Shown: piece by piece, positions 2,469 to 17,711 of the stretch
How the letters are laid out: the number at the start of each line of letters is the position of its first letter
Numbering within the stretch: the first letter of the stretch is position 1
Origin: Patescibacteria group bacterium
GTDB lineage: Bacteria > Patescibacteriota > Minisyncoccia > Minisyncoccales > 2-12-FULL-40-12
Length of the DNA stretch: 17,711 nt
Reading direction: 5' to 3'
Assembly (NCBI GenBank): GCA_038062035.1
Contig: JBBTXV010000018.1
Span: forward strand, 5,621 to 23,331
Program-made: the position numbers and the translations under genes
Notes under the pieces: generated by a model
The model's database searches: none
Told to the model about the DNA's origin: nothing
The model's input: the letters and a program-made list of their open reading frames with translations, nothing else

Positions 2469-2828
2469 ATGATAAAGAAATTGTTTATTAAAAAATTAAA
2501 AGAGGGATTAGAAAAAGAAAAAGACCGAGTTGAAGCTTCCCTTCAAGGTTTTGCCAAAAAAGATAGAAAACTTAAAGGAGATTGGGACGTTCCCTTTCCA
2601 AAATTAAGTCATAGTAATTTAGAAGATGAAGCTGAAGAAGTTGAAGAATATGAAGCTTTATTGCCGATTGAATATAGCTTAGAAAACCGGCTTAAAGATA
2701 TAAACTCAGCTTTGGAAAAAATAAAAAAGGGGAGATACGGTAAATGCGAAAATTGCCAAAATCCTATTCAAATTGAACGACTTAAAGCTGCTCCTGAAGC
2801 TCGTTTCTGCCTTAAATGTAAACACTAA
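2469..2828 (+). CDS. TraR/DksA-family C4-type zinc-finger protein
   Basis: The C-terminus reads GRYGKCENCQNPIQIERLKAAPEARFCLKCKH, i.e. CxxC-x17-CxxC preceded by a charged helical N-terminus, which is the zf-dksA/traR architecture. The start is 4 nt after the upstream gene's stop. Confidence 0.75.
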   Translation: MIKKLFIKKLKEGLEKEKDRVEASLQGFAKKDRKLKGDWDVPFPKLSHSNLEDEAEEVEEYEALLPIEYSLENRLKDINSALEKIKKGRYGKCENCQNPIQIERLKAAPEARFCLKCKH

Positions 2829-2840
2829 AAATCTTTTATT

Positions 2841-4406
2841 GTGCCTTCTAAAATATACTCAGCAGCCACTATTGGTCTTGACGCCCAAACTGTTGAAGTT
2901 GAAGTAGATTGCAGTTATGGCCTTCGTTCTTTCACTATTGTGGGATTACCAGATAAGGCCGTTGAAGAGTCAAAAGAAAGAGTAGCCAGCGCAATCAAAA
3001 GCATAAAACTTTCTCCGCCTCACCATCAACCTCGCCGCGTTTTAGTCAATTTGGCGCCAGCTGACCTCAAAAAAGAAGGTTCTCTTTACGATTTGCCAAT
3101 TGCTTTGGGCTTTCTTTTATCTTCAAAACAGATAAAATTTGATCCTGAAGGAAAAATCTTCTTGGGAGAATTAGCTTTAGATGGAAGATTAAGGCCAATT
3201 AAAGGGGCTTTATCTATTTCTCTTTTTGCCCAAAAAAAATTTAAGGAGATAATCTTGCCAGAAGAAAATTCAAAAGAGGCTGCCTTGGCTACTTTAAAGA
3301 ATTCTGGGAAAGAACAAATTGACTTTAAGGTAATTGGCATTGCAAATTTAAAAGAAGCGATTGATTATTTAGAAGGGAAAAAACAAATATCGCCTCAAAA
3401 AATAAATTCCGGGGAACTTTTTAAGGAAACCGACTTTTCTTTTGATTTAGGTTTCATCAAAGGCCAAGAATACGCTAAAAGAGCCCTGGAAATTACAGCA
3501 GCTGGCGGCCACAACCTCTTGATGTCAGGACCGCCTGGCGCTGGAAAAACCCTCCTATCTAAAGCCATTCCTTCTCTTTTACCCTCGCTTTCTTTTGAAG
3601 AATCTTTAGAGGTCACCAAAATTTATAGCATCGCTGGTCTTTTAGCCGAAGGGCAATCCTTGATCAATCTCAGGCCTTTTCGTAATCCTCATCATACTAC
3701 TTCAGAAGTAGCTTTAATTGGCGGAGGAAATCCTCCCAGGCCCGGCGAAATAACTCTGGCTCACCGGGGAATTCTTTTTTTGGACGAGTTTCCTGAATTT
3801 CATCGCGACGTCCTGGAAAGCCTGCGCCAACCCATTGAAGAAGGAAAAATCACCATTGCCAGAGCAAGACACTCTTTAACATTGCCAGCCAGGTTTACTT
3901 TAATCGCTGCCACTAATCCTTGCCCTTGCGGCTATCTTCAAGACTCGGAAAAAAATTGCACCTGTACCAGTTCCCAAGTCCAAATGTATAAAAGAAAATT
4001 ATCTGGCCCTTTAATGGACAGAATTGACCTTACCATTGAAGTTCCAAAATTAAAATACGAAAAATTGATAGCTTCAGGCGAAGAAAGTGAAAGCCAAAAA
4101 ATAAGATTAAGAGTAGAAAAATCAAGGGCAATCCAAGGAAAAAGATTTGGGAATGACAATACTGAAAGAAAAGATAAAATATTAGTGAATGCTGAAATGG
4201 GACTGCCCGAAATAAAAAAATACTGCCAAATAGACAGTAATTCTCAAGGCCTTTTAAAAAAGTACGTTGATTCAGGATTTCTTTCGGCTCGCGGCTACCA
4301 TCGAGTTTTAAAAGTAGCCAGAACTATTGCCGATTTGGATAATTCTGAAAACATCGGCTATCGCCATCTCTCAGAAGCATTAATCTATAGGATAAGAGAA
4401 GGATAA
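2841..4406 (+). CDS. comM: YifB/ComM-family Mg-chelatase-like AAA+ ATPase, GTG start
   Basis: There is an N-terminal Lon/ChlI-like domain (TIVGLPDKAVEESKERV). The Walker A motif is LLMSGPPGAGKTLL and the Walker B region is GILFLDEFPEF. The sensor region ATNPCPCGY with Cys pairs is typical of YifB/ComM. Confidence 0.9.
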   Translation: MPSKIYSAATIGLDAQTVEVEVDCSYGLRSFTIVGLPDKAVEESKERVASAIKSIKLSPPHHQPRRVLVNLAPADLKKEGSLYDLPIALGFLLSSKQIKFDPEGKIFLGELALDGRLRPIKGALSISLFAQKKFKEIILPEENSKEAALATLKNSGKEQIDFKVIGIANLKEAIDYLEGKKQISPQKINSGELFKETDFSFDLGFIKGQEYAKRALEITAAGGHNLLMSGPPGAGKTLLSKAIPSLLPSLSFEESLEVTKIYSIAGLLAEGQSLINLRPFRNPHHTTSEVALIGGGNPPRPGEITLAHRGILFLDEFPEFHRDVLESLRQPIEEGKITIARARHSLTLPARFTLIAATNPCPCGYLQDSEKNCTCTSSQVQMYKRKLSGPLMDRIDLTIEVPKLKYEKLIASGEESESQKIRLRVEKSRAIQGKRFGNDNTERKDKILVNAEMGLPEIKKYCQIDSNSQGLLKKYVDSGFLSARGYHRVLKVARTIADLDNSENIGYRHLSEALIYRIREG

Positions 4407-4407
4407 A

Positions 4408-5553
4408 TTATCTATTAAAAGGATTACTAGCTCCCTTGACTTCAAAATGAAGGTGGCAACCAGTCGTTTTTCCGGTATTTCCTATTGTTCCAATTTGCTC
4501 ACCTGCTGAAACTATTTGTCCTGACTGAACCAAAACGGATCCAAGATGATAATAAGCAGTAACCACTTGGTTAGGATGAATAACAGAAATGCTGTTGCCC
4601 GCTCCAGCATTCCAACCGCCAGCCTTAGCCCTTACGATTTCTCCCCCGGCTGCAGCAAAAACAGGCCTGCCGCAACTATTTCCTCCAGGATGAGTCAAAT
4701 CTACGGCATTATACCAATGCAAACCCTGGCTGATTGTATAAGGAGAAGCCAAAGGAAGAATAAAGTAACTGGAGGGAAGAGATATTTGGTTTGGCGAGGA
4801 AGGATTTACGAACTTTTGCTGCTTTTTTGAAGGCGGGGGCATTATGCCATCGGGAATAATTAAAATATCGCCAATATAAATATCGCCCTCGCTTTCCAAT
4901 TCGTTAAAAGCGACGATCTTGCCAATATCGCTTTTATAATTTTTAGCAATCTGGCTTAAAGTTTCTCCTTTTTTAACGTAGTGTAAAATTCCAGAAACCG
5001 GCAAAATAATTAAAGCTTGGCCAGATTTCAGTTTGGATTTTTTGGTCAGGTTATTAGCCCAAATTAAGGTTTCCAAAGAAATACCAAATTTTTCAGCCAC
5101 TGAGACCAAGGTATCGTCCTCTCTGAGGGTATACTCGATAACCTCTTTTCTCAGACTTGATTCAATCCCTTGTCCTGTCAAAACACCAAAGCTATGAGAC
5201 AAAACCATAACTGGGGAAGAAACAGCCATTATGCTGTCTTTTTGAACCAAAACAAGATCTGAAGAATTGTCAAAAGAATTAGGGCCTAAAACAGAAAGAG
5301 ATGAAGTCAAAACAGGCTGATTGATTCCGTCAAAAGAAGAATCTCCTGGCGCATTTGAAATTTGGGCCTGGAGATTTTTGGTTAAAAGAGAAGAATCTAA
5401 GTTTTCTGAAAAAACAATGGGCCTAAAAGCTAAAGCCAATAACGAAATCGCTAAAATTAACCCAAAAAGGAGAAAAGGGTCTTTGAGAGATCCCTTTTTT
5501 TGTTCGTAGATTCGGCGAATTACCTTTTTGAACTTGGCTCCAAAGGAGCTCAA
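4408..5553 (-). CDS. Membrane-anchored peptidoglycan hydrolase with two LysM domains and a C-terminal M23 (LytM-type) metallopeptidase; TTG start
   Basis: There is an N-terminal TM helix (FLLFGLILAISLLALAF). The two LysM-like segments are YTLREDDTLVSVAEKFGISLETLIWAN and HYVKKGETLSQIAKNYKSDIGKIVAFN. The M23 motifs are HWYNAVD...HPGG and GCHLHFEV. The start codon is TTG (plus-strand CAA at 5551-5553) and the first in-frame ATG lies >100 codons downstream. Confidence 0.85.
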   Translation of the reverse strand: MSSFGAKFKKVIRRIYEQKKGSLKDPFLLFGLILAISLLALAFRPIVFSENLDSSLLTKNLQAQISNAPGDSSFDGINQPVLTSSLSVLGPNSFDNSSDLVLVQKDSIMAVSSPVMVLSHSFGVLTGQGIESSLRKEVIEYTLREDDTLVSVAEKFGISLETLIWANNLTKKSKLKSGQALIILPVSGILHYVKKGETLSQIAKNYKSDIGKIVAFNELESEGDIYIGDILIIPDGIMPPPSKKQQKFVNPSSPNQISLPSSYFILPLASPYTISQGLHWYNAVDLTHPGGNSCGRPVFAAAGGEIVRAKAGGWNAGAGNSISVIHPNQVVTAYYHLGSVLVQSGQIVSAGEQIGTIGNTGKTTGCHLHFEVKGASNPFNR

Positions 5554-5791: not shown

Positions 5792-6628
5792 ATGGAACTT
5801 GCTTCGTTAAGAGAAATAAAAAAGATACTCCAAAAAAACCGAACTTCTCCCTCAAAGGGCTTGGGTCAGAATTTTCTAATCAGTCGAACAGCTCTAAGTC
5901 AGTTAATTGGGGCTGCCGAGCTAAAAAGAGAAGATACCGTCCTGGAAATTGGGCCGGGAATCGGAGTTTTAACCTTAGAATTAGCCAAAAGAGTAAAAAA
6001 ATTAATTGCCGTAGAAAAAGACCGAAAAATGTGCCAAATTCTAAAAGAAACTTTGGAAGCTTATAAAAATTTGGAAATTATCAACGCTGATATTTTAAAA
6101 TTTAACCATAATAACTATAAACTAATAACTAAAAACTATAAACTGGTAGCAAATCTTCCTTATTACATTACATCACCTGTAATAAGAAAGTTCTTGGAAG
6201 TTGAAAAACCGCCTGATTTAATGGTTTTAATCGTGCAAAAAGAAGTCGCTCAAAGAATTTGCGCCAAGCCGCCCAAGCTCAATCTTCTGGCGGTCTCCGT
6301 TCAATTGTATGCCAATCCTAAGATTATCTCTTTTGTTCCGAAAAATTCTTTCTGGCCCAAACCCAAGGTTGATGGAGCAATCATTCAAATTACGCAAATA
6401 AAAAAAGATGGAAAAATAGATAATCAAACATTTTTTAAAATCGTGAAAGCAGGATTTTCCCAGCCAAGAAAACAAATTATTAACAACTTGTCTAAAAGGT
6501 TAAAATTAAATAAGATGCAAGCCGAATCTTGGTTAAAATCTTGTAAAATCGAACCTGAACAAAGGGCTGAAACATTAAGCTTATCTGATTGGATTCTGTT
6601 AACAGAAAAATTTGCTATAATAAAATAA
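5792..6628 (+). CDS. rsmA: 16S rRNA (adenine1518/1519-N6)-dimethyltransferase RsmA/KsgA
   Basis: The N-terminal GQNFL motif is present. The SAM-binding motif is LEIGPGIGVLT, the NLPYYITSPVI motif is present, and the C-terminus is helical. The stop TAA at 6626-6628 overlaps the next ATG. Confidence 0.9.
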   Translation: MELASLREIKKILQKNRTSPSKGLGQNFLISRTALSQLIGAAELKREDTVLEIGPGIGVLTLELAKRVKKLIAVEKDRKMCQILKETLEAYKNLEIINADILKFNHNNYKLITKNYKLVANLPYYITSPVIRKFLEVEKPPDLMVLIVQKEVAQRICAKPPKLNLLAVSVQLYANPKIISFVPKNSFWPKPKVDGAIIQITQIKKDGKIDNQTFFKIVKAGFSQPRKQIINNLSKRLKLNKMQAESWLKSCKIEPEQRAETLSLSDWILLTEKFAIIK

Positions 6629-9123
6629 TGCCAAAGAGAGCAATAGGATTTTTTATAATTTTCTCTACGTTTTTTTTATTATTTTCTCTTTTTTCCTCTT
6701 TTGATTTCGCTTTTGCTCAAGGAAGACAATTGGAAATTGATTATCCAAATGTTCCCGGAGCCCCTACTCCAAAAACAACCGCAACCTTATTACCCGATTA
6801 CGTTAAATACGTCTTTAATTTCGGGATAATAATTTTTGGCTTAATAGTTTTGGGCGTTTTAGTCGCAGGGGGAATTAAATATCTTTTATCCACGGGGAAA
6901 CCGGAAGCATTACAAGAAGCCAAGAATCAAATACTTGCCGCTTTTTTGGGAATAATCGTTTTACTTAGCTCTTATTTAATTCTCACCACTATTAATCCCC
7001 AGTTGGTAATTTTTAACATACCGGGACTAACTCAAATTACGGTCTTTCGCTGCACAACCGATGAAAGTTGTAATGGGCGTTTCGGGTGTGAAACGCCGGG
7101 CACTTGTCGTTGCGACCTTGGAATCTGTAGGGCAAAACTGGAACCAAGGGAAACAACTTTAATAGCTTACGAAATCCCCGTAGGGCAACTGATAGAAAAG
7201 GGTGTTCAGAACGAAAACAATATTAACGAGGTAACCATTTTACTTAACGAATTTGAAAAATTTTTGAAAAAGGAAATTCCCGTTGACCCGCCTTCTTATA
7301 GATTATCTGATTTAAGCAAGCATCTTGTGGGCCTAACCGAAGATTGTAGCTGTGATGCCACGGAGGGTATTTGCGCCACTCCTGAAGCCGGAGCCGGAGG
7401 AGTGGGCTGCTTTGGAAATCCTTGTAAAGATTCCGAGGAAGAAATCCAAAAAGCCGTGGATATTACCTCTCAAAAAATAAGAGAGCTTCAAGATTTTAAA
7501 AATGAAGTAAAAAAACAGTTTCAAATTTTTCTGCAAGAAGGAGAAAAATTTTTAAAAGCTAACGAAGAAATAAATGAGTGTATAGAAAATGGGAAACTTT
7601 TAACCTTGGCTGATTATTTAGCTACATCTCAATTTTTTACTGAGCAAGGATGGAAGACGCAACTCAAATCAAACCCATATTTCCCTAGCTCTGGAGGAGA
7701 CGATCTAACATTTTATTGCATAAAAGGAGGAACAATTTTTGACGCGCCGAGAACCAGCTCATTCAATATACCTGAGATTCCGTTAGAGTTAAACCTTGTA
7801 ATTCCAACCGAACCCTTGTTAAGTCCAGAACCATTATCTTGTCCGGCAATTCTCCCGTTAGGCGAAATGCTAGATAATATAACAATTGAATCATACACAG
7901 CCAACGAAGATCTGGAAAGCCTAATCGTTCTTATTGACTTACTCTCTAAAGAACTCCAAAAATTACTTGATTCTGTTTCAAGCTGCAGCAGGAAAGACGC
8001 ATGCAGCATTACTTGCGCAAAGGGACCAAATCCCTGTTTTCCTGAAAGACCCTGCGCTCAACCATGGGGAGTGGGATATCCATGTTTTCGCTGCAACCCT
8101 CTTTCCCTTCCGCCTTGTTTACTCTGTGGACCAGGCATGGGTCTTTCTCCAAATATTCAAGCCAGAGGGGGCGGATCATCTTGTCAGGGCAATCCTGATG
8201 CGCCATACCACGGCTCCCCTTGCCCTCGTGATGATATAGAAAAAACTTTACAAAAGATTAAACTCCTTGATAATGAAATTATTGAACTAATCCAAGAAAC
8301 AAAAAATGGATTTAATGCGAAGCCGTACATAATAGAGACTCCTAAGGAAAATATAAACTTGCTCCAAGGAATTAGAGGGTCAACGGCATTCTGTACCAGC
8401 GATGATATTAATAACCCGGATATTTTTTTGCTTAATTGCCTAGATGCTATAGGAAATGAAGGGCCGGACGGCAACATAATTGGCGACTGCGATCCTCAAA
8501 GCTTTTTTTGCTGTACCGCTGATAAAACAAAAGCGGGTTCAATAAGGCAATCTTTTCCAAGAGAAACACAAGAATTCAACTATTATACTGGCCCTCGTCT
8601 TGAAAACCCTTTTTCTCCTGCTGAAATTAGAAATAATGTTCCTTATTTTAGCCAAAAGGACCCTCTTTGGGCGGGAAGGTCTTATGGGTGCGGAGGGACA
8701 ACAATAAAATCCTCTGGTTGCGGCCCTACTTCTATGGCTATGGTGTTACGACATTACGGCAAAAATGTCGATCCTGTAATCACTGCTGAATGGTCATTAA
8801 GAAACAACTTTCGAGTTTGTAATGCCGGTACTGCCTGGAGTTTTTTCAACAGTATAGCTAAATCTTACGGTTTAAATGGGTGCAAACCTTTAAGCGTGGC
8901 GAATATTGACAATCTAATAGCTAAACTTTCCGATGGACCGATAATCGTTAGCGGCCGAGGAAATCCTCCGTATTCAAAAGGAGGACATTATATTGTTTTA
9001 ACCGGGGCAGATGAAAATTATGTTTATATAAATGATCCGGCACGACCTAAGTTAAAAAGAAAGCTAATTGACGAATTTAGAATAGCTGGGAGAGCAAGAT
9101 TCGCTTGCCAAGTTAAACAATAG
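6628..9123 (+). CDS. Secreted/membrane chimeric protein: Sec signal peptide, a VirB2/TrbC-type pilin-like TM hairpin, a ~520-aa Cys-rich ectodomain and a C-terminal C39-like (papain-fold) cysteine peptidase domain
   Basis: I prefer the start at ATG 6628 (MPKRAIGFFIIFSTFFLLFSLFSSFDFAFA|QG is a textbook signal peptide) over the tracked 6589 start, which overlaps rsmA. A conserved motif LEIDYPNVPGAPTPKTTATLLPDYVKYVF precedes two TM helices separated by STGKPEALQEAKNQ. Multiple Cys clusters follow. The C-terminus contains YFSQKDPLWAG...GCGPTSMAM...GGHYIVLTG. Confidence 0.75.
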   Translation: MPKRAIGFFIIFSTFFLLFSLFSSFDFAFAQGRQLEIDYPNVPGAPTPKTTATLLPDYVKYVFNFGIIIFGLIVLGVLVAGGIKYLLSTGKPEALQEAKNQILAAFLGIIVLLSSYLILTTINPQLVIFNIPGLTQITVFRCTTDESCNGRFGCETPGTCRCDLGICRAKLEPRETTLIAYEIPVGQLIEKGVQNENNINEVTILLNEFEKFLKKEIPVDPPSYRLSDLSKHLVGLTEDCSCDATEGICATPEAGAGGVGCFGNPCKDSEEEIQKAVDITSQKIRELQDFKNEVKKQFQIFLQEGEKFLKANEEINECIENGKLLTLADYLATSQFFTEQGWKTQLKSNPYFPSSGGDDLTFYCIKGGTIFDAPRTSSFNIPEIPLELNLVIPTEPLLSPEPLSCPAILPLGEMLDNITIESYTANEDLESLIVLIDLLSKELQKLLDSVSSCSRKDACSITCAKGPNPCFPERPCAQPWGVGYPCFRCNPLSLPPCLLCGPGMGLSPNIQARGGGSSCQGNPDAPYHGSPCPRDDIEKTLQKIKLLDNEIIELIQETKNGFNAKPYIIETPKENINLLQGIRGSTAFCTSDDINNPDIFLLNCLDAIGNEGPDGNIIGDCDPQSFFCCTADKTKAGSIRQSFPRETQEFNYYTGPRLENPFSPAEIRNNVPYFSQKDPLWAGRSYGCGGTTIKSSGCGPTSMAMVLRHYGKNVDPVITAEWSLRNNFRVCNAGTAWSFFNSIAKSYGLNGCKPLSVANIDNLIAKLSDGPIIVSGRGNPPYSKGGHYIVLTGADENYVYINDPARPKLKRKLIDEFRIAGRARFACQVKQ
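6731..7013 (+). other. VirB2/TrbC-like pilin hairpin module (conserved pre-helix motif plus two TM helices ending in TINPQL) within the 6628-9123 CDS
   Basis: The topology is signal peptide, short conserved motif, TM1, ~14-aa polar loop, TM2. It is paralogous to 12410-12700. Confidence 0.45.
8630..9075 (+). other. C39-like / papain-fold cysteine peptidase domain (Peptidase_C39_2-like) at the C-terminus of the 6628-9123 CDS
   Basis: The motifs are NVPYFSQKDPLWAGRSYGCGGTTIKSSGCGPTSMAMVLRHYG and later GGHYIVLTGADENYVYINDP. This is a putative Cys nucleophile followed by a His, in the order and spacing expected of YvpB-type C39-like domains. Confidence 0.55.
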
Positions 9124-9144: not shown

Positions 9145-12100
9145 ATGTTAAGAGATCTAAAAAAAAGTTTAATATTAAAATATCTAAAAAAAATTAAGTT
9201 TCTAAATACTTATTTTTTAGCTTTGGGAATAATAACAACGATTTTCTTAATTTCTGGTTTCGCTGGAATAAGCCCTCTTTCTGACAAAGTTAAAGTGTTG
9301 GGCCAAGGAATACCTTTGTTTTATTTCCCCAATTTTCCAATAAGATTGGCTTTTTTAGCTAATGAGATCACGACAACCAACGAAGAACTGATTATTCGTA
9401 GTGATGAGCTATCAAAATTCGTCAACGCTTTCGACTGCAAATACGCTCAATCGCAATGCGTGCAGACAACAAAGAAATTGCCAGGAGGAGGACAGCAATC
9501 CATTTGCGAGCCAGGACCAATAAAAGTATTTGGAAGGGTTAATCCTATACCACAAGGCACCACCAATGAAAAAGAAGTTCACTCCGAAGAAATACAATCT
9601 GCAATAAATGATTTAAATATTAAACTTGCCTCCTTGCAAACAACTTTAAGAGGGGAAGTCGAAATTGGCATAGAAAAACAGTTGAAAACTTTAAGGCCTG
9701 AAGACGCTCAAATTATCAGAGACAATTTAGAAAAACTTGATCGGTTAATGTCCGAAATGAGAAATCTAACTGAAAGAAACTCTTCACTACCTAATAAATG
9801 TTCAGTTCAAAGATGCACCCCGGAATGCGAATTAGGCCAAACTTTTACTGCTGAAGCCTGTGTTGGAGCTTCCGGCGAACAAAAACCAATAGAGCTTAAA
9901 TTTAAAGTCGGCGTAGGATTAGATAATTTGAATCTCGGCAGGTTGGGCATAGAAAACATCAATCTTGGCTTACCAGACAAGGTTAATATACCAACTCCCC
10001 AACTTCCCTCTCTCAGTTTCCGTATTCCAAATGCCACCTTAAACTGCCCGACCCAAAGACAACAGATCGTTTTTCATCCATCCACTCCTATCCTACCAGA
10101 CTTGCCAACCATAACTCTGAGTTGTCCTCAATATCAAAGCTATTCATCCTATCAATGCTCTTCTCCTCCCTCGCAAGGAGAAGAAGGGTTTATTGAATTT
10201 GAATGGTGGAATAAAACTTTTGAGCATTTGTCAGGAGAATGTCTTAAAGTTGCTAACAGCGACAGTAAAAGATTAAAAAATGAACAAGGGCAAATTGAAT
10301 ATCAAAAAGCAGTAGAGGGCTGCATGAGCCCAGAGAAGGTTGTCCCGACCACTATTAATGAGTGTGAAGCAAAATGGGTAAGAAAATGTTCTTTCCTTGA
10401 CTGTCGCTGGGAACTCTCCAATCCCCGAGAACAAGAAATCTGTGGTCAGATTGGTCGTTCACCAGACAAAACTCAAAAAGCGGTTAAATGGTGCCAGACA
10501 TTATACCAAGATGAAGGACAAACCCCTCCGGCTACCTGCTCTTCTGAAACAATTCTAACAACTCATCAAAAGTGCAACGAGATAAGAAATTCAGGTAGAG
10601 AAAACGTTCCGCTTTCTTGTAAACTTTTACCGTTATTCGCTGGACAATTAGAAGATCTGCCAGAAGGAACAGTTATAGGTCAAGGAGGAAATTGTCCATC
10701 TCAAAATATTGGGGATTTTCCTATACCAATGGCTGGTTGCGCAATAACCGCTCCATCTATCCCTAAAATAACTTTTCCAACAATAATTATCCCTGACATC
10801 CATCTTCCAACTTTCAGCTTACCTCCTCTCTTTCGGGTAAAATTACCAAATCTTATTTTTGAGGACTTAAATATAGGCGAAATCAACCTTTGCAACTTAG
10901 ACGACTGCAGCGCCCAATTTCCTTACTTAACTTTTAAACCTCCTTCTTTAAAAATCCCTCAAGTAAATGTTCCGCCTGTTACCCTGGAGATTCCAGGCGC
11001 CTCTCCAATAGATATCCAAATAGAACCAATTAATTTCCAGACCTTAAATTTTAACATTCCCCAGTTAATTAACTTGGGATCTTTGGTAACGCCCGAATTA
11101 AAGATACCGGAAATTCCCCTGCCCCAGCCAAGAATTCAATTCTCTTTTCTCGGAATTAATATTGATTTGCTAAATCTACTTCTTGGCCTTTTCAAAACGC
11201 CCCTCAATCTTAATCAGTGCGTGGCTTTGGACGCTAAGCTTGGAGTGCTCGATATTGTTTATCCTGACAAATATTTCCCTTGGCCAGCCTATCCCAAACC
11301 AGGAGAACTCAAATTTTGCAAAAAAGCAAGAGAATGGTGTCAAAGACAAAAAGGATCAATCCAGGAAATAACAACAAAAGCCGCTAGAATTCAAGAGCAA
11401 GTTAATAGCGTTTTTCAGAGCGAAATCCAAACAAAGCTTGATAAGACAGCTGATAGATTAAATCAAAAAATAACCAGAGAAGTTGAAAGAGAACTTGAGA
11501 AAGTTAAAAACGAAATAAGCAAGCAATTGCTCCAACATTTAGGGAAATATGCTCCTCAAAATGTTATACCTCCTTCAGCGCCGGTGCCTGGCGTCTGGGA
11601 AGTTAAAGGAGAACTTCCCTGTCAAGGAATACCGCCTTTAACCGTTTATATGCCTCCGGATTTACAAACAATTAGCATTGATCCTCAATCAATAAATGAA
11701 TTCCTTGAAAAAGAATTTGGAGAAACCTGGCCAACAGAAATTACTATCCGCTGGCCAAAAGATCTAAAAAAGTTCAAGCTGTCCTGTAACGAAAGTAATT
11801 GTGAGGCCTGTGAACAAAGAGGAAATGACGCTTGCCGAGGATTGTTAAGATGGGCGGACTGCCCGACCCTTGCCAATTGGGAAGATTACGCAAAATGCAA
11901 GTTGGATTACAGAATAAACAGCTGTAAAAACGAGTGCAAAAACTGCTTAAGCTATGACCTGCCGTCAGTTCCTTTGTGCGGATTAAGTTACAAAAAAGAA
12001 TTTACTAGAAGACTTCCTGGCCATCAACTATCTGTAACGACGCCAAGAGATCTTCTTTCGGGTTTAAGAAATGTTCGCGAGTGTATTAGTGGGCCACCCA

Positions 12101-12219
12101 AAGGAGGAAATCCTTGCCAGACAGAAGCAGGTCAAATCCAGGCTAATCTTAATAAGATTAAAAGATTATCGGAGGAGATGAAAAACGCTTCCCAAGAGAT
12201 AACTAATTTATTATACTAA
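9145..12219 (+). CDS. Large (1024 aa) signal-anchored, cysteine- and proline-rich extracytoplasmic protein with a coiled-coil segment; a putative surface or adhesin-like component
   Basis: There is an N-terminal TM anchor (FLALGIITTIFLISGFAGI) and >40 Cys. A coiled-coil stretch (EIQSAINDLNIKLASLQTTLRGEVEIGIEKQLKTL) is present. A long run of periodic xIPxxxLPxL motifs (IPKITFPTIIIPDIHLPTFSLPPLF...KIPEIPLPQPRIQF) shares the IPEIPL motif with the preceding CDS. Spacing to its neighbours is tight. Confidence 0.75.
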   Translation: MLRDLKKSLILKYLKKIKFLNTYFLALGIITTIFLISGFAGISPLSDKVKVLGQGIPLFYFPNFPIRLAFLANEITTTNEELIIRSDELSKFVNAFDCKYAQSQCVQTTKKLPGGGQQSICEPGPIKVFGRVNPIPQGTTNEKEVHSEEIQSAINDLNIKLASLQTTLRGEVEIGIEKQLKTLRPEDAQIIRDNLEKLDRLMSEMRNLTERNSSLPNKCSVQRCTPECELGQTFTAEACVGASGEQKPIELKFKVGVGLDNLNLGRLGIENINLGLPDKVNIPTPQLPSLSFRIPNATLNCPTQRQQIVFHPSTPILPDLPTITLSCPQYQSYSSYQCSSPPSQGEEGFIEFEWWNKTFEHLSGECLKVANSDSKRLKNEQGQIEYQKAVEGCMSPEKVVPTTINECEAKWVRKCSFLDCRWELSNPREQEICGQIGRSPDKTQKAVKWCQTLYQDEGQTPPATCSSETILTTHQKCNEIRNSGRENVPLSCKLLPLFAGQLEDLPEGTVIGQGGNCPSQNIGDFPIPMAGCAITAPSIPKITFPTIIIPDIHLPTFSLPPLFRVKLPNLIFEDLNIGEINLCNLDDCSAQFPYLTFKPPSLKIPQVNVPPVTLEIPGASPIDIQIEPINFQTLNFNIPQLINLGSLVTPELKIPEIPLPQPRIQFSFLGINIDLLNLLLGLFKTPLNLNQCVALDAKLGVLDIVYPDKYFPWPAYPKPGELKFCKKAREWCQRQKGSIQEITTKAARIQEQVNSVFQSEIQTKLDKTADRLNQKITREVERELEKVKNEISKQLLQHLGKYAPQNVIPPSAPVPGVWEVKGELPCQGIPPLTVYMPPDLQTISIDPQSINEFLEKEFGETWPTEITIRWPKDLKKFKLSCNESNCEACEQRGNDACRGLLRWADCPTLANWEDYAKCKLDYRINSCKNECKNCLSYDLPSVPLCGLSYKKEFTRRLPGHQLSVTTPRDLLSGLRNVRECISGPPKGGNPCQTEAGQIQANLNKIKRLSEEMKNASQEITNLLY

Positions 12220-12226
12220 GGTAATT

Positions 12227-13693
12227 ATGAAAGGTACGAGGTTTTTATTCGTTTTATTAATTATTGCTTTCTTGTTTTTTTTATCGGGTAATTTTGTCTC
12301 AGCTCAACAAGTATGCGATAAAGATCAAGATTGTCCAGGAGGTCAAAGCTGTATATCTGATCCTTGCAATACCGACCCTAACGCCCCAAAAATATGCGGT
12401 AAAGGCAGGGCTTTGGAAATCTGCTATCCTCAAATACCAGGAGTCGCTACACCAAAAACAACCGGTGAGCCCTTACCAGATTACATAAATTATATTTTCC
12501 GCTTCGCAATTGCTGCGATAGGCTTTGTTGTCCTTGGAGCTATGGTTTATGCCGGCGTCAGCTATTTTCTTTCATTCAACAACGCAGCGAAACTTCAAGA
12601 TGCCAAAGAAGGAATTTCTGCCGCTTTTTTGGGTGGCGTTATTTTGTTGGCGGCTTTTCTAATTTTTAATACGATAAATCCGCAATTAACTATTCTTGGA
12701 CCTCCAAAAGCTGATCTTCTGTGGGGGACAACTCAACCCGGAATATATATTTGTACTTATCCCGTAGATACAGGTTATTTAACTCAAATTAACCAAGACC
12801 TCAAAATCCAACCAACCTTCGGAGATCTAGGAGCAATTATTGATGCTTATACCAATGAAACGGATCCAAAAAGACAGGTTGAAGCAACTCAGGCATTACA
12901 AAGAATAATGTACAAGGACTCTTCGAATCTTTGCCAATTGCTCTTGAGCTCCACAAATCTCAGAACCCCGTTGCTGCCAAATTATACAATGTTCTCTATC
13001 CCAAAAGTATTCCCTGACCCGAATGATCCGCAAAAGCGCGTAGCAGAATTTCTTGAAGCGGTAATTTTGCATGAAAAAGATGATTTTAAGGGGGAACAAA
13101 AATTATACCCAATACCAAAAACGGTTGGAAGAAAACTTGTGCTCTTTGATCAAATCGACGGATTTAAAGCGGGCAACGGCTTAAATGACATCGGGGGAAG
13201 GGCTAAATCAATTACTCGTATAAAAAAGGCGGATGTGCCAGAAGCAAGCCCTCCAGGGATAACCTTATTCTCCTGCCCCAACTGGAATCAAAGCAAGGGC
13301 TTATGCCCAAAAGGATTGACTGGAACGCCTATCCCCCTTATTGATGCAAGTTTTGCCACTGACGGCGCTGACATTAAACTCTGGGGGAAAAGCGAACTTA
13401 AATCGGGCCAAGAATCTTTAGCTGAAAATGTCCGCTCTATTAGAATCACGCCATTGGGCAGTTTTCTTGCTATAGTATATGAAAAAGACGATGCAAAAGG
13501 AAATGGGGGAATTTTATATTCTGACGCTGCTGATATTAGGGGAAATAAATTGGGGCTTAAAATGTGTGGAACAAACTGTCCTTCGGGAATACTTCAATCC
13601 ACCCCTTTCTTCTTTATTCTTGACAGGATAAGAGGTATTGATTGTACCCCCTGTATAAATTCAATGACAGTTATTAAGGGAATAAAATTATGA
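12227..13693 (+). CDS. Secreted/membrane protein: signal peptide, a Cys-rich N-terminal knot, a VirB2/TrbC-like pilin hairpin (a paralog of the module in 6628-9123) and a ~330-aa ectodomain
   Basis: The signal peptide is MKGTRFLFVLLIIAFLFFLSGNFVSA|QQ, followed by CDKDQDCPGGQSCISDPC. The segment LEICYPQIPGVATPKTTGEPLPDYINYIF...AAFLGGVILLAAFLIFNTINPQL aligns with the 6731-7013 module. The stop overlaps the next start (ATGA at 13690-13693). Confidence 0.8.
   Translation: MKGTRFLFVLLIIAFLFFLSGNFVSAQQVCDKDQDCPGGQSCISDPCNTDPNAPKICGKGRALEICYPQIPGVATPKTTGEPLPDYINYIFRFAIAAIGFVVLGAMVYAGVSYFLSFNNAAKLQDAKEGISAAFLGGVILLAAFLIFNTINPQLTILGPPKADLLWGTTQPGIYICTYPVDTGYLTQINQDLKIQPTFGDLGAIIDAYTNETDPKRQVEATQALQRIMYKDSSNLCQLLLSSTNLRTPLLPNYTMFSIPKVFPDPNDPQKRVAEFLEAVILHEKDDFKGEQKLYPIPKTVGRKLVLFDQIDGFKAGNGLNDIGGRAKSITRIKKADVPEASPPGITLFSCPNWNQSKGLCPKGLTGTPIPLIDASFATDGADIKLWGKSELKSGQESLAENVRSIRITPLGSFLAIVYEKDDAKGNGGILYSDAADIRGNKLGLKMCGTNCPSGILQSTPFFFILDRIRGIDCTPCINSMTVIKGIKL
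12410..12700 (+). other. Second copy of the pilin-like hairpin module
   Basis: The shared pattern with the first copy is LEIxYPxxPGxxTPKTTxxxLPDYxxYxFxF - TM1 - loop - AAFLGxxxLLxxxLIxxTINPQL. Confidence 0.45.
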
Positions 13694-15144
13694 TTCAATT
13701 CTTGGGAGATGCCATTTTAGGTGCCATCTTTCTTGTGCCGGCGATTTTAACCGCTCTACTTATAAGTCTTAGCCAGGCTGCAGCTTTTTTAATGGGGATT
13801 ATCTTAGATTGGATTATTAGCCCTAACTTTACCTCTTATAGCTACACCAAACCCTGCAATCCCCCTGACAGAATAGTCGGAGATTGTAATCCAGTTGTCG
13901 GAATAGGATTAAATATCACTCAAGGCTTTGTAAACTTACTCTTAGTAGTAGTTCTGGTTTATGTTGCTATTTCCATAGCTTTAAGATTAGGAGGGGAAAC
14001 TAATGCGAAAAAGATATTCGTCAATCTAATCATCGTTGCTTTATTGGTGAATTTTGCTCCGGTTCTCATTGGCTTGATCGTGGATGCTACTAATATTGTG
14101 ATGAACTTTTTCTTTTCTTCTATCCAAGGGGGAGCAGCTGGAATATTAAATCAGGGCGCAACAATTTTTGATACGGTAAAAGGCGCTGTACTAGCCTCGG
14201 GAGCAGGATTCAAAGATAGACTGGGATTATTAGCAGCTGGAGCTTTCACAGTAAGCCTCAACCTCTTTATTGCTTTTATCTTTTTGATTTTTGCCGGGCT
14301 CTTCGTTTTCAGATATATTGCCATCTGGATCTTAGTAATCTTATCCCCAATCGCCCTTGTCCTTTGGGTCTTACCCGGCAAGCCAAGACAGTTCTGGAAT
14401 ATGTGGTGGAATAATCTTATCCAATGGTCAATTATTGGAATCCCAATTTCTTTCTTTCTATATTTAGCGCTTGCAAGTTTCAGCGCCATTAATAGATCTT
14501 TCCTAGGACGAATAGAACAATCTTCGGGTATTTTTCCGGCCGCTGATTTAACCTTCGTTGACCGACTCATTCCCTATGCTGTAGTAAGTGCTTTTCTTGG
14601 TATGGGATTTTTAGTGAGCTTGGCAACCTCAGCCATGGGCGCTAACGCCATTATTGCCGGAGGTATGGCAAGCGGTAAATTTACACGCGATAGAGCTTGG
14701 GGGGGAACAAAAAGGGCTAGTAGGGCCACATGGCGAGGAACTAGAAACGCAGGAAGCCAAGTTATGGGTCGTTATGCGGCGGGAAGACAAGCCGGCCAAG
14801 GAAGAATCGGAGCTTTTGGTCGAGCAGTAGGGGGAGCAACTGGAGCAGGAGTACGCCAAGTAGGAAGCACAGTAGCAGGCTGGGCAAGCGTCAGAAGCCA
14901 ATATAGAACAGCGAGACAAGCTGGCGTTGGAAAAATACGGTCAGTATTTATGACAGCACCAGCCAGATCAGCTGCTGGTGCTGCTAAGGGTGTAACTTCT
15001 TTCCTTGGCGGTATGGCAGGCGCATGGGTACAAGGAGCTACCAAGAAGAAGGGTAAAGCGAAAGGAAAAGCATTCTGTAGTACTTGTGGAGCTACTGCTC
15101 CATCGGGATCGAATTTCTGTCAAAGTTGTGGATCGCCAATTTAA
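13690..15144 (+). CDS. Polytopic VirB6/TrbL-like membrane protein with a Gly/Ala/Arg-rich low-complexity tail and a C-terminal zinc ribbon
   Basis: There are ~8 hydrophobic helices across aa 1-330, including YIAIWILVILSPIALVLWVLPG. One extracytoplasmic loop contains a Cys pair (KPCNPPDRIVGDCNP). The tail (aa ~330-455) is rich in G/A/R/T with repeated RxAG and GAxG. The final 22 aa read CSTCGATAPSGSNFCQSCG (CxxC-x10-CxxC). The GC-rich DNA at 14640-15060 matches the tail. Confidence 0.75.
   Translation: MIQFLGDAILGAIFLVPAILTALLISLSQAAAFLMGIILDWIISPNFTSYSYTKPCNPPDRIVGDCNPVVGIGLNITQGFVNLLLVVVLVYVAISIALRLGGETNAKKIFVNLIIVALLVNFAPVLIGLIVDATNIVMNFFFSSIQGGAAGILNQGATIFDTVKGAVLASGAGFKDRLGLLAAGAFTVSLNLFIAFIFLIFAGLFVFRYIAIWILVILSPIALVLWVLPGKPRQFWNMWWNNLIQWSIIGIPISFFLYLALASFSAINRSFLGRIEQSSGIFPAADLTFVDRLIPYAVVSAFLGMGFLVSLATSAMGANAIIAGGMASGKFTRDRAWGGTKRASRATWRGTRNAGSQVMGRYAAGRQAGQGRIGAFGRAVGGATGAGVRQVGSTVAGWASVRSQYRTARQAGVGKIRSVFMTAPARSAAGAAKGVTSFLGGMAGAWVQGATKKKGKAKGKAFCSTCGATAPSGSNFCQSCGSPI
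15073..15141 (+). other. C-terminal zinc-ribbon (CxxC-x10-CxxC) of the VirB6-like protein
   Basis: FCSTCGATAPSGSNFCQSCGSPI is a canonical short zinc-ribbon spacing. Confidence 0.6.
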
Positions 15145-17521: not shown

Positions 17522-17711
17522 ATGAATTTTCAGATTCCCCAATTTATTGAACAAGAAGCAAAAATTTTAGGGCCTTTTACTTTCAAACAAACTCTTTGGG
17601 TAGTCGGGGTCGGGATAATTATATTTTTTCTTTATTATTCTTTAGCCAAAACAAACCCTGTTCTTTTTATCATTATAACGGTATTTTTGGCTGGGACTGG
17701 CTCAGCTTTTG
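17522..17711 (+). CDS. PrgI-family (VirB3-like) small membrane protein, 3'-partial; it runs off the window
   Basis: MNFQIPQFIEQEAKILGPFTFKQTLWVVGVGIIIFFLYYSLAKTNPVLFIIITVFLAGTG matches the conserved PrgI N-terminus (a short amphipathic start, GPFTFKQ, then two TM helices). In monoderm conjugation systems PrgI precedes the VirB4-like ATPase. Confidence 0.55.
   Translation, partial: MNFQIPQFIEQEAKILGPFTFKQTLWVVGVGIIIFFLYYSLAKTNPVLFIIITVFLAGTGSAF

What the first reader, a model, noticed from the sequence alone, without database searches (positions are those of the whole stretch)
9145..12219. 1024-aa Cys/Pro-rich surface protein with periodic xIPxxxLP repeats shared with the neighbouring gene
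After a signal anchor and a coiled coil, the protein contains a long stretch of short proline-anchored periodic motifs (IPDIHLPTFSLPPLF, KIPQVNVPPVTLEIPGASPIDIQIEPINF, KIPEIPLPQP). These echo FNIPEIPLELNLVIPTEPLLSPEPLSCPAILPL in 6628-9123. More than 40 cysteines are spread through the sequence. The architecture is adhesin-like or fibre-like, and its position between the two pilin-like genes suggests it is part of the same extracellular structure.
Basis: seen in the sequence. Interest (0 to 1): 0.6.

Follow-up and report, generated by a model that had tools for sequence, protein, structure and literature searches.

The report
Stalk-and-head surface protein of Patescibacteria T4SS
This gene encodes a conserved, membrane-anchored, disulfide-rich surface protein of an ultrasmall (Patescibacteria) bacterium that shares a helical stalk with the neighbouring pilin genes of a type IV secretion system. 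It is a plausible but unproven candidate for the part of that machine that touches the host cell.

Summary
The ORF 9145-12219 is real: 1024 aa, exactly 40 Cys, 88 Pro and one N-terminal membrane helix. It has about 90 clear relatives (clusters at 50% identity), and the named genomes are Parcubacteria/Paceibacteria MAGs. In all 12 loci long enough to show all four genes it sits in the order pilin-fusion / this gene / pilin-like / VirB6-like. VirB3-like, TraC-like and VirB4 genes lie downstream in three orthologous loci.

The proline periodicity is real but modest. Short runs of conserved pentad spacing (phi-P-x-phi-x) occur across the family, and four Pro-rich segments resemble each other weakly. 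No beta-solenoid or repeated fold was recognised.

The "echo" in the neighbour lies in a non-conserved linker and is not homologous. The true shared element is elsewhere. Residues 59-229 and 976-1024 form a stalk, modelled as a four-helix bundle, that is homologous to the C-terminal extension of T4SS_pilin proteins, including the upstream neighbour. A ~745-aa head is inserted between the two stalk halves.

Cysteine parity and repeated joint gain and loss give a partial disulfide map, so the protein is extracytoplasmic.

No Pfam, NCBIfam or PDB relative exists. The function (host-contact or tip-like T4SS accessory subunit) is inferred, not shown.

The parts
9145..12219 (+). Whole ORF: 1024-aa T4SS-locus surface protein (stop codon included)
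   Evidence: 100% match to NCBI 'hypothetical protein AAB565_01185 [Patescibacteria group bacterium]'
9208..9270 (+). N-terminal membrane helix (about aa 22-42), signal anchor, after a Lys-rich cytoplasmic N-terminus
   Evidence: hydropathy maximum 2.24 at aa 24-42; AF2 helix 2-39
9319..9831 (+). N-terminal stalk module (aa 59-229): helix 66-94, Cys-bearing beta-hairpin 102-129, helices 147-180 and 185-218
9889..10179 (+). First beta/Pro-rich head segment (aa 249-345), with Cys301, Cys327 and Cys338
   Evidence: AF2 strands 249-310; weak profile similarity to 596-672 and 800-880; covarying Cys pairs 327-532, 338-517, 301-826
10183..10644 (+). Cys-rich mostly helical head domain (aa 347-500) with eight family-invariant or near-invariant Cys (366, 393, 407, 433, 450, 465, 477, 492)
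   Evidence: AF2 pLDDT 80-93; Cys conservation
10657..11160 (+). Pro-rich head region (aa 505-672) with short conserved pentad runs phi-P-x-phi-x (P540/545/550/555/561; 600/605/610; 650/655/660)
   Evidence: lag-5 periodicity; internal similarity 530-600 vs 596-672, P = 2.2e-6; AF2 short irregular strands, pLDDT about 70-88
11134..11196 (+). Conserved hydrophobic segment (aa 664-684, IQFSFLGINIDLLNLLLGL), followed by a low-confidence loop 679-700; role unknown
   Evidence: hydropathy 1.58; consensus GxxIDxxxLLLGL; pLDDT below 50 at 679-700
11317..11550 (+). Cys725/Cys732 followed by a long helix (aa 725-802)
   Evidence: AF2 helices 725-802, pLDDT 83-90
11557..11784 (+). Fourth Pro-rich segment (aa 805-880), with Cys826
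   Evidence: profile similarity to 215-345, P = 8e-6; Cys826 covaries with Cys301
11785..11979 (+). Subclade-specific helical insertion with 10 Cys (aa 881-945)
   Evidence: present in 5 of 33 and 8 of 59 relatives
12070..12216 (+). C-terminal stalk module (aa 976-1024): strand with Cys980, GGNPC(991), terminal helix 992-1023
   Evidence: hhalign to the C-terminus of small T4SS_pilin proteins: Prob 97.4, E 1e-11. To upstream neighbour aa 501-562: Prob 96, E 3e-9. Covarying pairs 121-980 and 219-991.
6628..9123 (+). Upstream gene: signal peptide + T4SS_pilin hairpin + two stalk modules (nt 7285-7512 and 8128-8313) + C39-like peptidase domain
7756..7854 (+). The 'echo' motif FNIPEIPLELNLVIPTEPLLSPEPLSCPAILPL in the upstream gene. 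The linker is not conserved; only the SCPAxIPLGE end is conserved.
   Evidence: alignment of six orthologues
12227..13693 (+). Downstream pilin-like gene (signal peptide, Cys-rich N-terminus, pilin hairpin, ~330-aa C-terminal domain without the stalk module)
   Evidence: an orthologue carries PF18895 (weak)
13690..15144 (+). VirB6-like polytopic membrane protein with a C-terminal zinc ribbon
   Evidence: at least 6 hydrophobic segments; weak pLS20_p028 hit; TrbL_3 (weak) in orthologue L004; Zn_Ribbon_1
17522..17711 (+). First 63 codons of the VirB3/PrgI-like gene, cut by the end of the window and contig
   Evidence: 71% identity to the PrgI-hit gene of L001; contig end

Best explanation
The gene encodes an accessory surface subunit of the chromosomal type IV secretion system of a Parcubacteria/Paceibacteria-type Patescibacterium. 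It is shaped like a lollipop.

Shown by computation:
- A single N-terminal membrane helix anchors the protein with its bulk outside the cell.
- Residues 59-229 and 976-1024 are homologous to the C-terminal extension carried by a class of T4SS_pilin proteins, including the upstream neighbour.
- A ~745-aa head replaces the ~9-residue connection found in the small pilin-stalk proteins. The head consists of Pro-rich beta segments, a Cys-rich helical domain and a long helix.
- Joint gain and loss of cysteines indicates disulfides 121-980 and 219-991, which would clamp the two stalk halves together.
- The same analysis indicates 327-532, 338-517 and 301-826, which would staple the head segments to each other.
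- With 40 Cys, up to 20 disulfides are possible.

Inferred:
- The stalk and head fold oxidatively outside the cell.
- The shared stalk lets the protein dock beside or onto the pilin-stalk fusion proteins at the VirB6 platform.
- The head is then displayed at the distal end, where it contacts the host cell or a ligand. This role is analogous to a VirB5 tip protein or a Gram-positive T4SS adhesin.
- The short phi-P-x-phi-x pentad runs are rigid structural elements of the head, not a fibre-forming repeat.
For: - Family and conservation: 12 close relatives. In the search of cluster representatives, 171 hits at E <= 1e-3 and 88 at E <= 1e-30. There are 23 invariant columns over 33 sequences, mostly Cys and Pro.
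- Synteny: pilin-fusion / target / pilin-like / VirB6-like in all 12 loci long enough, with gaps of -4 to +26 nt in the window.
- PrgI, TraC-like and VirB4 lie downstream in L001 and L003, and PrgI and TraC-like in L004, whose contig ends there. The VirB3-like start is at the window's end.
- Stalk homology: Prob 94.9, E 4.6e-8; Prob 99.8, E 7e-28; Prob 97.4, E 1e-11.
- All 11 small matching proteins tested have PF18895 hits. Eight score above the curated cut-off.
- One of these small proteins lies just downstream of VirB4.
- Extracytoplasmic disulfides: Cys number is even in 49 of 59 relatives (p = 1.4e-7).
- Paired Cys columns were gained or lost jointly in 2-12 independent events on a neighbour-joining tree, with 0-2 discordant sequences. 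Non-partner columns differ in 12-46 sequences.
- Binding role: relatives carry NHL propeller, Ig-like Kre9/KNH or ComEA-type HHH_3 domains.
[quoted passage not shown] No adhesin has been found, and neither paper read reports a VirB5 homologue (PMC12102498, PMC10633639, PMC12857230).
Against: - There is no experimental datum for any family member.
- pTM is only 0.50, so domain packing is uncertain. I could not inspect coordinates, so the disulfide pairs were not checked against the model.
- VirB4 is not on the source contig. The T4SS link rests on orthologous loci.
- The pilin Pfam hits in the window itself are below the curated cut-off.
- Nothing shows that a pilus is made in these organisms, or that the stalk mediates co-assembly.
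- The phi-P-x-phi-x resemblance to AHNAK/periaxin-like and bacterial pentapeptide-repeat proteins is compositional.
Confidence: 0.5

Rival explanations
1. It is an envelope-spanning structural scaffold of the secretion channel. It would be a functional stand-in for the bitopic VirB8 or VirB10 subunits, which are hardly detectable in Patescibacteria, rather than a distal host-contact protein.
For: - Bitopic topology: an N-terminal membrane helix with a large external domain.
- Proline-rich stretches, as in VirB10.
- VirB8 homologues are almost absent from Patescibacteria. The authors suggest a different protein may do the job (PMC12102498).
- Strict one-copy synteny next to the VirB6-like gene.
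Against: - No sequence hit to VirB8, VirB10 or any T4SS family in Pfam or NCBIfam.
- No NTF2-like or beta-barrel match in the PDB.
- The stalk is shared with pilin extensions, which are expected outside the membrane.
- Relatives acquire binding-type domains, which is more typical of exposed proteins.
Confidence: 0.2
2. It is a repeat-built fibre or adhesin. The periodic xIPxxxLP motifs would form a beta-solenoid or polyproline rod shared with the neighbouring gene.
For: - Conserved pentad proline spacing across the family.
- Weak profile similarity among four Pro-rich segments.
- Proteins made purely of (LPx[IL]x)n repeats exist and match this region.
Against: - Only three short runs of 3-5 pentads occur.
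- AF2 gives irregular short strands rather than regular coils.
- No pentapeptide or solenoid family hit.
- Long-range disulfide pairs tie these segments to other parts of the head, which fits a globular fold.
- The neighbour's motif lies in a non-conserved linker.
Confidence: 0.1
3. It is a general cell-surface or envelope protein that is only syntenic with the T4SS genes and works independently of them.
For: - The block lies among housekeeping genes (rsmA, comM, LysM-M23 peptidase) that are also syntenic.
- No direct functional link has been shown.
Against: - The stalk is homologous to extensions found in T4SS_pilin proteins. All 11 small matching proteins tested carry PF18895.
- One of these small proteins lies directly next to VirB4.
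- The gene is packed tightly between two pilin-like genes in every locus.
Confidence: 0.12
4. It is a secreted effector or toxin delivered by the T4SS.
For: - Location in a T4SS locus.
- The upstream neighbour carries exchangeable hydrolase-type domains, reminiscent of polymorphic toxins.
Against: - A Sec-type N-terminal anchor and many disulfides imply folding outside the cytoplasm.
- The C-terminus is conserved rather than polymorphic.
- No enzymatic domain was detected.
Confidence: 0.05

Closest known systems
C-terminal extension ('stalk') of Patescibacteria T4SS_pilin (PF18895) proteins: ~350-aa pilin-stalk proteins and the ~840-aa pilin-stalk-hydrolase fusion upstream. This is an unnamed module.
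   Same: True homology in two collinear pieces. The first is helix, CxC...C...FGxPC, helix, helix. The second is GGNPCP followed by a terminal helix ending in ...ILE/LLY. The topology is also the same: a membrane helix running N-in to C-out, a short linker, then the stalk.
   Different: The target has no pilin hairpin, only one membrane helix and no PF18895 hit. It carries a ~745-aa head where the small proteins have about 9 residues. In this genome's subclade the family's Cys96-Cys133 pair is missing (F96, N133).
VirB5/TraC-type pilus-tip proteins of Gram-negative T4SS
   Same: Possible functional analogy only. Both are non-pilin exported proteins encoded next to virB2/virB6-type genes, and both have a helical-bundle body with an appended domain. 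VirB5 docks on VirB6 and ends up at the pilus tip (PMC12857230).
Enterococcal pCF10 surface factors PrgA, PrgB and PrgC
   Same: Monoderm T4SS-associated surface proteins. From my own knowledge and the title of bioRxiv 10.1101/2020.06.18.156562, PrgA has a long helical stalk with a head domain at its tip, a similar lollipop logic.
   Different: No Pfam hit to any PrgB-type adhesin domain, no LPXTG anchor, and no CAP domain match. The 2025 survey found no PrgB-like adhesins in Patescibacteria.
phi-P-x-phi-x pentapeptide-repeat proteins (eukaryotic AHNAK/periaxin-like; bacterial (LPx[IL]x)n proteins)
   Same: The region 505-672 matches their repeats in a profile search. The pentad proline spacing is the same.
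   Different: Those proteins have tens of perfect tandem units and almost no Cys. The target has three runs of 3-5 units embedded in a disulfide-stapled domain. The similarity is compositional and convergent.

Membership tests
Patescibacteria chromosomal T4SS gene cluster (MPF-FATA-related) | Encoded beside VirB2-like pilins, VirB6-like, VirB3/PrgI-like, TrsD/TraC-like and VirB4 genes, in conserved order | tested here: met
   VirB4 itself is seen only in orthologous loci, because the source contig ends at the VirB3-like gene.
Pilin-extension stalk module (unnamed) | N-module (helix, CxC..C..FGxPC, two helices) plus C-module (GNPCP, terminal helix), in collinear order | tested here: met
   hhalign Prob 99.8 (E 7e-28) and 97.4 (E 1e-11) to small pilin-stalk proteins. 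Prob 97.5 and 96 to the upstream neighbour's two modules.
T4SS_pilin (PF18895) / VirB2-like pilin | Signal peptide plus two-helix hydrophobic hairpin matching the pilin profile | tested here: not met
   No PF18895 hit at E <= 0.1; only one membrane helix.
VirB5/TraC pilus-tip protein | Sequence or fold match to the VirB5 three-helix bundle with globular appendage; cleaved signal peptide; about 220 aa | tested here: not met
PrgB-type adhesin | Polymer-adhesin (GbpC-like) domain, Ig-like C-terminal domains and an LPXTG anchor | tested here: not met
   No Pfam hit; the C-terminus ...SQEITNLLY has no LPXTG.
PrgC-type surface protein | Tandem Pro/acidic repeats and an LPXTG cell-wall anchor; homology to PrgC | tested here: inconclusive
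   No LPXTG. No tandem DNA or peptide repeat of that kind. No PrgC profile was available in the libraries, so homology could not be tested.
Beta-solenoid / pentapeptide-repeat fold | Long uninterrupted run of repeats forming regular coils; match to a repeat family | tested here: not met
   Only three runs of 3-5 pentads. AF2 strands are irregular. No repeat family in Pfam. I could not inspect the 3-D coordinates.
Extracytoplasmic disulfide-bonded protein | Even cysteine number and pairwise co-variation of cysteines; export signal | tested here: met
   Even in 49 of 59 relatives, p = 1.4e-7. Six pairs with joint gain or loss in 2-12 independent events. N-terminal anchor. Actual bonds are not testable here.

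The most novel reading that the evidence does not exclude
The protein is the missing host-contact (tip or base-plate) subunit of the Patescibacteria T4SS appendage, and a new class of T4SS accessory protein. It would be made by inserting a ~745-aa disulfide-stapled head of unknown fold into the same four-helix stalk that decorates the pilins. Pilin-stalk-hydrolase fusions and this stalk-head protein would then co-assemble through their stalks. Together they would form the device that attaches to the host envelope and breaches it.
Probability: 0.25. Interest if true: 0.75.

Novelty: new variant of a known kind. Interest (0 to 1): 0.55.

Why it matters
The Patescibacteria T4SS is essential for epibiotic growth in the one genetically tractable species. 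It is unusual among monoderm systems in encoding VirB2-like pilins (PMC10633639, PMC12857230). Whether it builds a pilus, and what contacts the host, are open questions, and published surveys list no adhesin or tip protein (PMC12102498).

This family is a strictly syntenic, single-copy, large surface protein in Paceibacteria-type genomes. It is linked by homology to the pilins' own extensions. That gives a concrete candidate, with a testable partial disulfide map, for localisation, binding and structural work. It also defines a stalk module that explains the long C-terminal extensions of many T4SS_pilin proteins.

Tried and rejected
- Pfam and NCBIfam scans of the target found nothing meaningful. 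The only hits were weak ones to coiled-coil-like families (VASP_tetra, fvmX5, arcadin-2), well below their cut-offs.
- A second word-indexed homologue search with the alignment returned no new sequences.
- A 63-sequence alignment call failed. I used 33 sequences instead, and 59 with local MAFFT.
- The first AF2 model (11 sequences) had pLDDT 64.9, and Foldseek against the PDB gave no hit.
- The afdb50 library was unavailable.
- Profile searches of PDB sequences with the target family and with the neighbour family gave no significant hit.
- Distant profile hits to giant proteins with many matching stretches looked like a repeated adhesin domain. They turned out to be AHNAK/periaxin-like and (LPx[IL]x)n low-complexity proteins, and I rejected them as homologues.
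- I looked for homology between the target's membrane helix and the pilin's second helix. The significant alignment starts only at residue 59, so this is not shown.
- The downstream pilin-like gene does not share the stalk.
- A literature search for cysteine-rich surface proteins of Parcubacteria T4SS found nothing relevant.
Full report
**What is there**

The window comes from a Patescibacteria (CPR) metagenome-assembled genome. The target translation is identical to NCBI 'MAG: hypothetical protein AAB565_01185 [Patescibacteria group bacterium]'.

ORF 9145-12219 (+) encodes 1024 aa with exactly 40 Cys (3.9%) and 88 Pro (8.6%). It has one strong hydrophobic helix at residues 24-42, after a Lys-rich N-terminus. 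A second, weaker conserved hydrophobic stretch lies at 664-682. Pfam and NCBIfam give no meaningful hit.

**Family and context**

- A word-indexed search found 12 relatives.
- An exhaustive profile search of 1.84 billion cluster representatives found 171 hits at E <= 1e-3 and 88 at E <= 1e-30. Most are 900-1200 aa and match end to end.
- Species-representative genomes with the family are labelled Ca. Nealsonbacteria, Parcubacteria group and Paceibacterota. Some assemblies carry generic 'uncultured Ca. Saccharibacteria' labels.
- Twelve loci are long enough to show all four genes, and all keep the same order. That order is a signal peptide + T4SS_pilin + long extension gene (~840 aa), then the target, then a second pilin-like gene (~430-570 aa), then a VirB6-like polytopic protein.
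- In the window these genes are separated by -4 to +26 nt.
- Downstream in L001 and L003 lie an SPFH gene on the other strand, then PrgI (VirB3-like), TraC-like (TrsD-like) and VirB4. L004 has PrgI and TraC-like before its contig ends.
- The window's last 190 nt encode the first 63 residues of the VirB3-like protein (71% identity). The source contig ends there.

This is the chromosomal Patescibacteria T4SS described by Quinonero-Coronel et al. 2025 (PMC12102498). [quoted passage not shown] The system and its pilin array are essential in Southlakia epibionticum (PMC10633639; review PMC12857230). None of these papers describes the present family.

**The observation**

*Periodicity.* Pro-Pro spacing of 5 is enriched. 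For the whole protein z = 4.2. Within 520-670, p = 0.02 against shuffles of the same segment.

The signal is family-wide. In 59 relatives, lag 5 has mean z 2.39 with 78% above 1.64, and lag 10 has mean z 1.72. Lags 3, 4, 6 and 7 show nothing.

It stems from short runs of nearly invariant prolines at 540/545/550/555/561, 600/605/610 and 650/655/660. The unit is phi-P-x-phi-x.

Sub-profile hhalign comparisons show weak mutual similarity of four Pro-rich segments:
- 215-345 vs 596-672, P = 2.2e-6
- 530-600 vs 596-672, P = 2.2e-6
- 215-345 vs 800-880, P = 8e-6

About a hundred other sub-profile pairs outside these and the stalk-module matches gave P of about 1e-3 or weaker. At single-sequence level, with shuffles, the similarity is marginal (z 0.6-3.5). 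No DNA tandem repeat underlies it.

Distant profile hits with many stretches turned out to be AHNAK/periaxin-like eukaryotic proteins and bacterial (LPx[IL]x)n proteins. That similarity is compositional.

*The 'echo' in the neighbour.* In an alignment of six orthologues of the upstream gene, FNIPEIPLELNLVIPTEPLLSPEP falls in a variable linker. Only the following SCPAxIPLGE is conserved. The motif is therefore not a shared homologous repeat.

**What the two genes really share**

- Profile-profile comparison of the target family (33 sequences) with the neighbour family (6 sequences) gives Prob 94.9, E 4.6e-8. It aligns target 76-169 with neighbour 220-295: helix, CxC..C..FGxPC, helix.
- With sub-profiles, target 60-220 matches neighbour 180-330 (Prob 97.5, E 6.6e-12).
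- Target 930-1024 matches neighbour 410-570 (Prob 96, E 3.3e-9). The two matches are collinear.
- About 13 proteins of 314-419 aa from the exhaustive search match the same parts of the target.
- All 11 of these small proteins that I scanned have T4SS_pilin hits, eight of them above the curated cut-off.
- Their post-pilin residues 149-307 align with target 59-229 (Prob 99.8, E 7e-28). Their last 47 residues align with target 976-1024 (Prob 97.4, E 1e-11). Only about 9 residues lie between the two pieces.
- One such gene lies two genes downstream of VirB4.

The target is therefore a membrane helix plus the pilin-extension stalk, split by a ~745-aa insertion (residues 230-975).

**Structure**

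With 33 sequences, AlphaFold2 gives pLDDT 77.1 and pTM 0.50. The elements are:
- helices 66-94, 147-180, 185-218 and 992-1023
- a beta-hairpin at 102-129
- beta segments at 225-310
- a helical Cys-rich domain at 347-500 (pLDDT up to 93)
- short irregular strands through 509-672
- a long helix at 725-802
- mixed elements at 832-986

No solenoid, Ig-like, lectin or VirB5 match was seen. I could not inspect coordinates.

**Disulfides**

The number of Cys is even in 28 of 33 relatives (p = 3e-5) and in 49 of 59 (p = 1.4e-7). Presence and absence of Cys covaries almost perfectly for six pairs:

| Pair | Both Cys | Neither Cys |
|---|---|---|
| 327-532 | 52 | 7 |
| 338-517 | 38 | 19 |
| 219-991 | 31 | 26 |
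| 121-980 | 52 | 5 |
| 301-826 | 11 | 47 |
| 96-133 | 46 | 12 |

The 96-133 pair is absent in the window protein (F96, N133).

On a neighbour-joining tree the joint changes occurred 6, 12, 9, 5, 2 and 5 times respectively. Only 0-2 sequences are discordant, whereas non-partner columns differ in 12-46 sequences.

The pairs make topological sense. Residues 219 and 991 sit at the junctions of helix 3 and helix 4 with the head. Residues 121 and 980 sit in the hairpin and in the strand before helix 4. The head therefore emerges at one end of the bundle, which I infer to be the membrane-distal end, and the C-terminus returns toward the membrane.

The 40 Cys of the window protein break down as follows:
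- 18 near-invariant Cys
- 5 covarying pairs
- a local 415/420 pair
- a 10-Cys helical insertion (881-945) found in only 8 of 59 relatives

**Mechanism**

*Shown by computation:*
- membership of a conserved family
- an obligate position inside the pilin/VirB6 block
- homology of the stalk to pilin extensions
- a helical-bundle stalk
- cysteine statistics that imply an oxidised, extracytoplasmic protein
- a head without known relatives

*Inferred:*
- Sec-dependent insertion with N-in/C-out topology
- oxidative folding
- association with the pilin-stalk fusions or the VirB6 platform through the common stalk
- display of the head for host or ligand contact

Relatives that add an NHL propeller, Ig-like Kre9/KNH domains or a ComEA-type HHH_3 domain fit a binding platform. 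The pentad runs are best seen as rigid structural elements of the head.

Rivals are listed separately: a channel scaffold standing in for VirB8/VirB10, a repeat fibre, a T4SS-independent envelope protein, and an effector.

**Comparison with known systems**

- By homology, the protein belongs only to the unnamed pilin-extension stalk family.
- It fails the tests for T4SS_pilin, VirB5, PrgB and pentapeptide or solenoid repeats. PrgC could not be tested by homology.
- It may work like a VirB5 tip protein or a PrgA/PrgB-type surface factor. That is analogy only.

**Verdict**

This is a real, conserved and so far undescribed accessory protein of the Paceibacteria-type T4SS. The repeat-fibre reading and the shared-motif claim are not.

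Novelty: a new variant of a known kind (T4SS-associated surface subunit) with a new architecture.

Interest: moderate to good (0.55). The family gives a concrete candidate and testable predictions for an open question, but every functional statement remains inferential.

Noticed in passing
window 6628-9123 (+) and orthologues L001:7368-10004, L003:5780-8317, L004:1007-3514, L005:530-3064, L006:7380-9941, L007:7302-9938: The upstream pilin-stalk fusion ends in an exchangeable hydrolase-type domain. It is Peptidase_C39_2 in the window, L004, L005 and L007. It is Peptidase_M74 murein endopeptidase in L001 (32.3 bits, above the cut-off). It is NlpC/P60, weak, in L003 and L006. None is detected in L002 and L011. 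A pilin carrying swappable hydrolase-type domains, two of them from cell-wall peptidase families (M74, NlpC/P60), could be a VirB1 substitute or a host-wall-breaching device.
   Followed up: partly
window 17522-17711 (+): First 63 codons of the VirB3/PrgI-like gene, 71% identical to the PrgI-hit gene of L001. The source contig ends here, so VirB4 of this genome is not on the contig.
   Followed up: yes
P0078, P0031, P0083 (relatives of the target): Some family members of 1500-2000 aa carry extra domains. One has an NHL-repeat beta-propeller, one has three Kre9/KNH Ig-like domains, and one has a ComEA-type HHH_3 helix-hairpin-helix domain (59 bits). The last hints at DNA binding outside the cell.
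   Followed up: partly
window 11134-11196 (+), aa 664-684 of the target: Conserved hydrophobic stretch IQFSFLGINIDLLNLLLGL (family consensus GxxIDxxxLLLGL) inside the extracellular head, followed by a low-confidence loop at 679-700. It is too short and too weakly hydrophobic for a clear membrane helix. Its role is unexplained.
   Followed up: no
L017:5970-9098 (locus of P0111): In another Patescibacteria T4SS locus, a 665-aa pilin and a 365-aa pilin-stalk protein follow VirB4 directly. The order is SPFH, PrgI, TraC-like, VirB4, a 134-aa gene, pilin, pilin-stalk. The stalk module is therefore a recurrent T4SS pilin accessory.
   Followed up: partly
window 105-2465 (+): A 786-aa protein, extremely Glu/Lys-rich and predicted helical, with a membrane helix near aa 545-570, a PPPPPP run and a C-terminal domain. 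It has no Pfam hit and is syntenic in 6 related loci. Its purine-rich coding strand explains the strong AT and GC skew of the first 1.5 kb.
   Followed up: no
window 13690-15144 (+): The VirB6-like polytopic protein ends in a Gly/Ala/Arg-rich tail and a zinc ribbon (CSTCG...CQSCG). Its start overlaps the preceding pilin-like gene by 4 nt. Orthologues vary from 484 to about 750 aa.
   Followed up: no
window 9430-9432 and 9541-9543 (aa 96 and 133 of the target): The window protein and its closest relatives have lost the otherwise common Cys96-Cys133 pair (F96, N133). They have gained a 10-Cys helical insertion at aa 881-945. This looks like remodelling of the disulfide set within one subclade.
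   Followed up: yes
window 4408-5553 (-) and 2469-4406 (+): A LysM-LysM-Peptidase_M23 gene, a DksA/TraR-type zinc-finger gene and a ComM/Mg-chelatase-like gene are syntenic with the T4SS block in most related loci. The 2025 survey lists LysM/M23 proteins among possible VirB1 substitutes.
   Followed up: no
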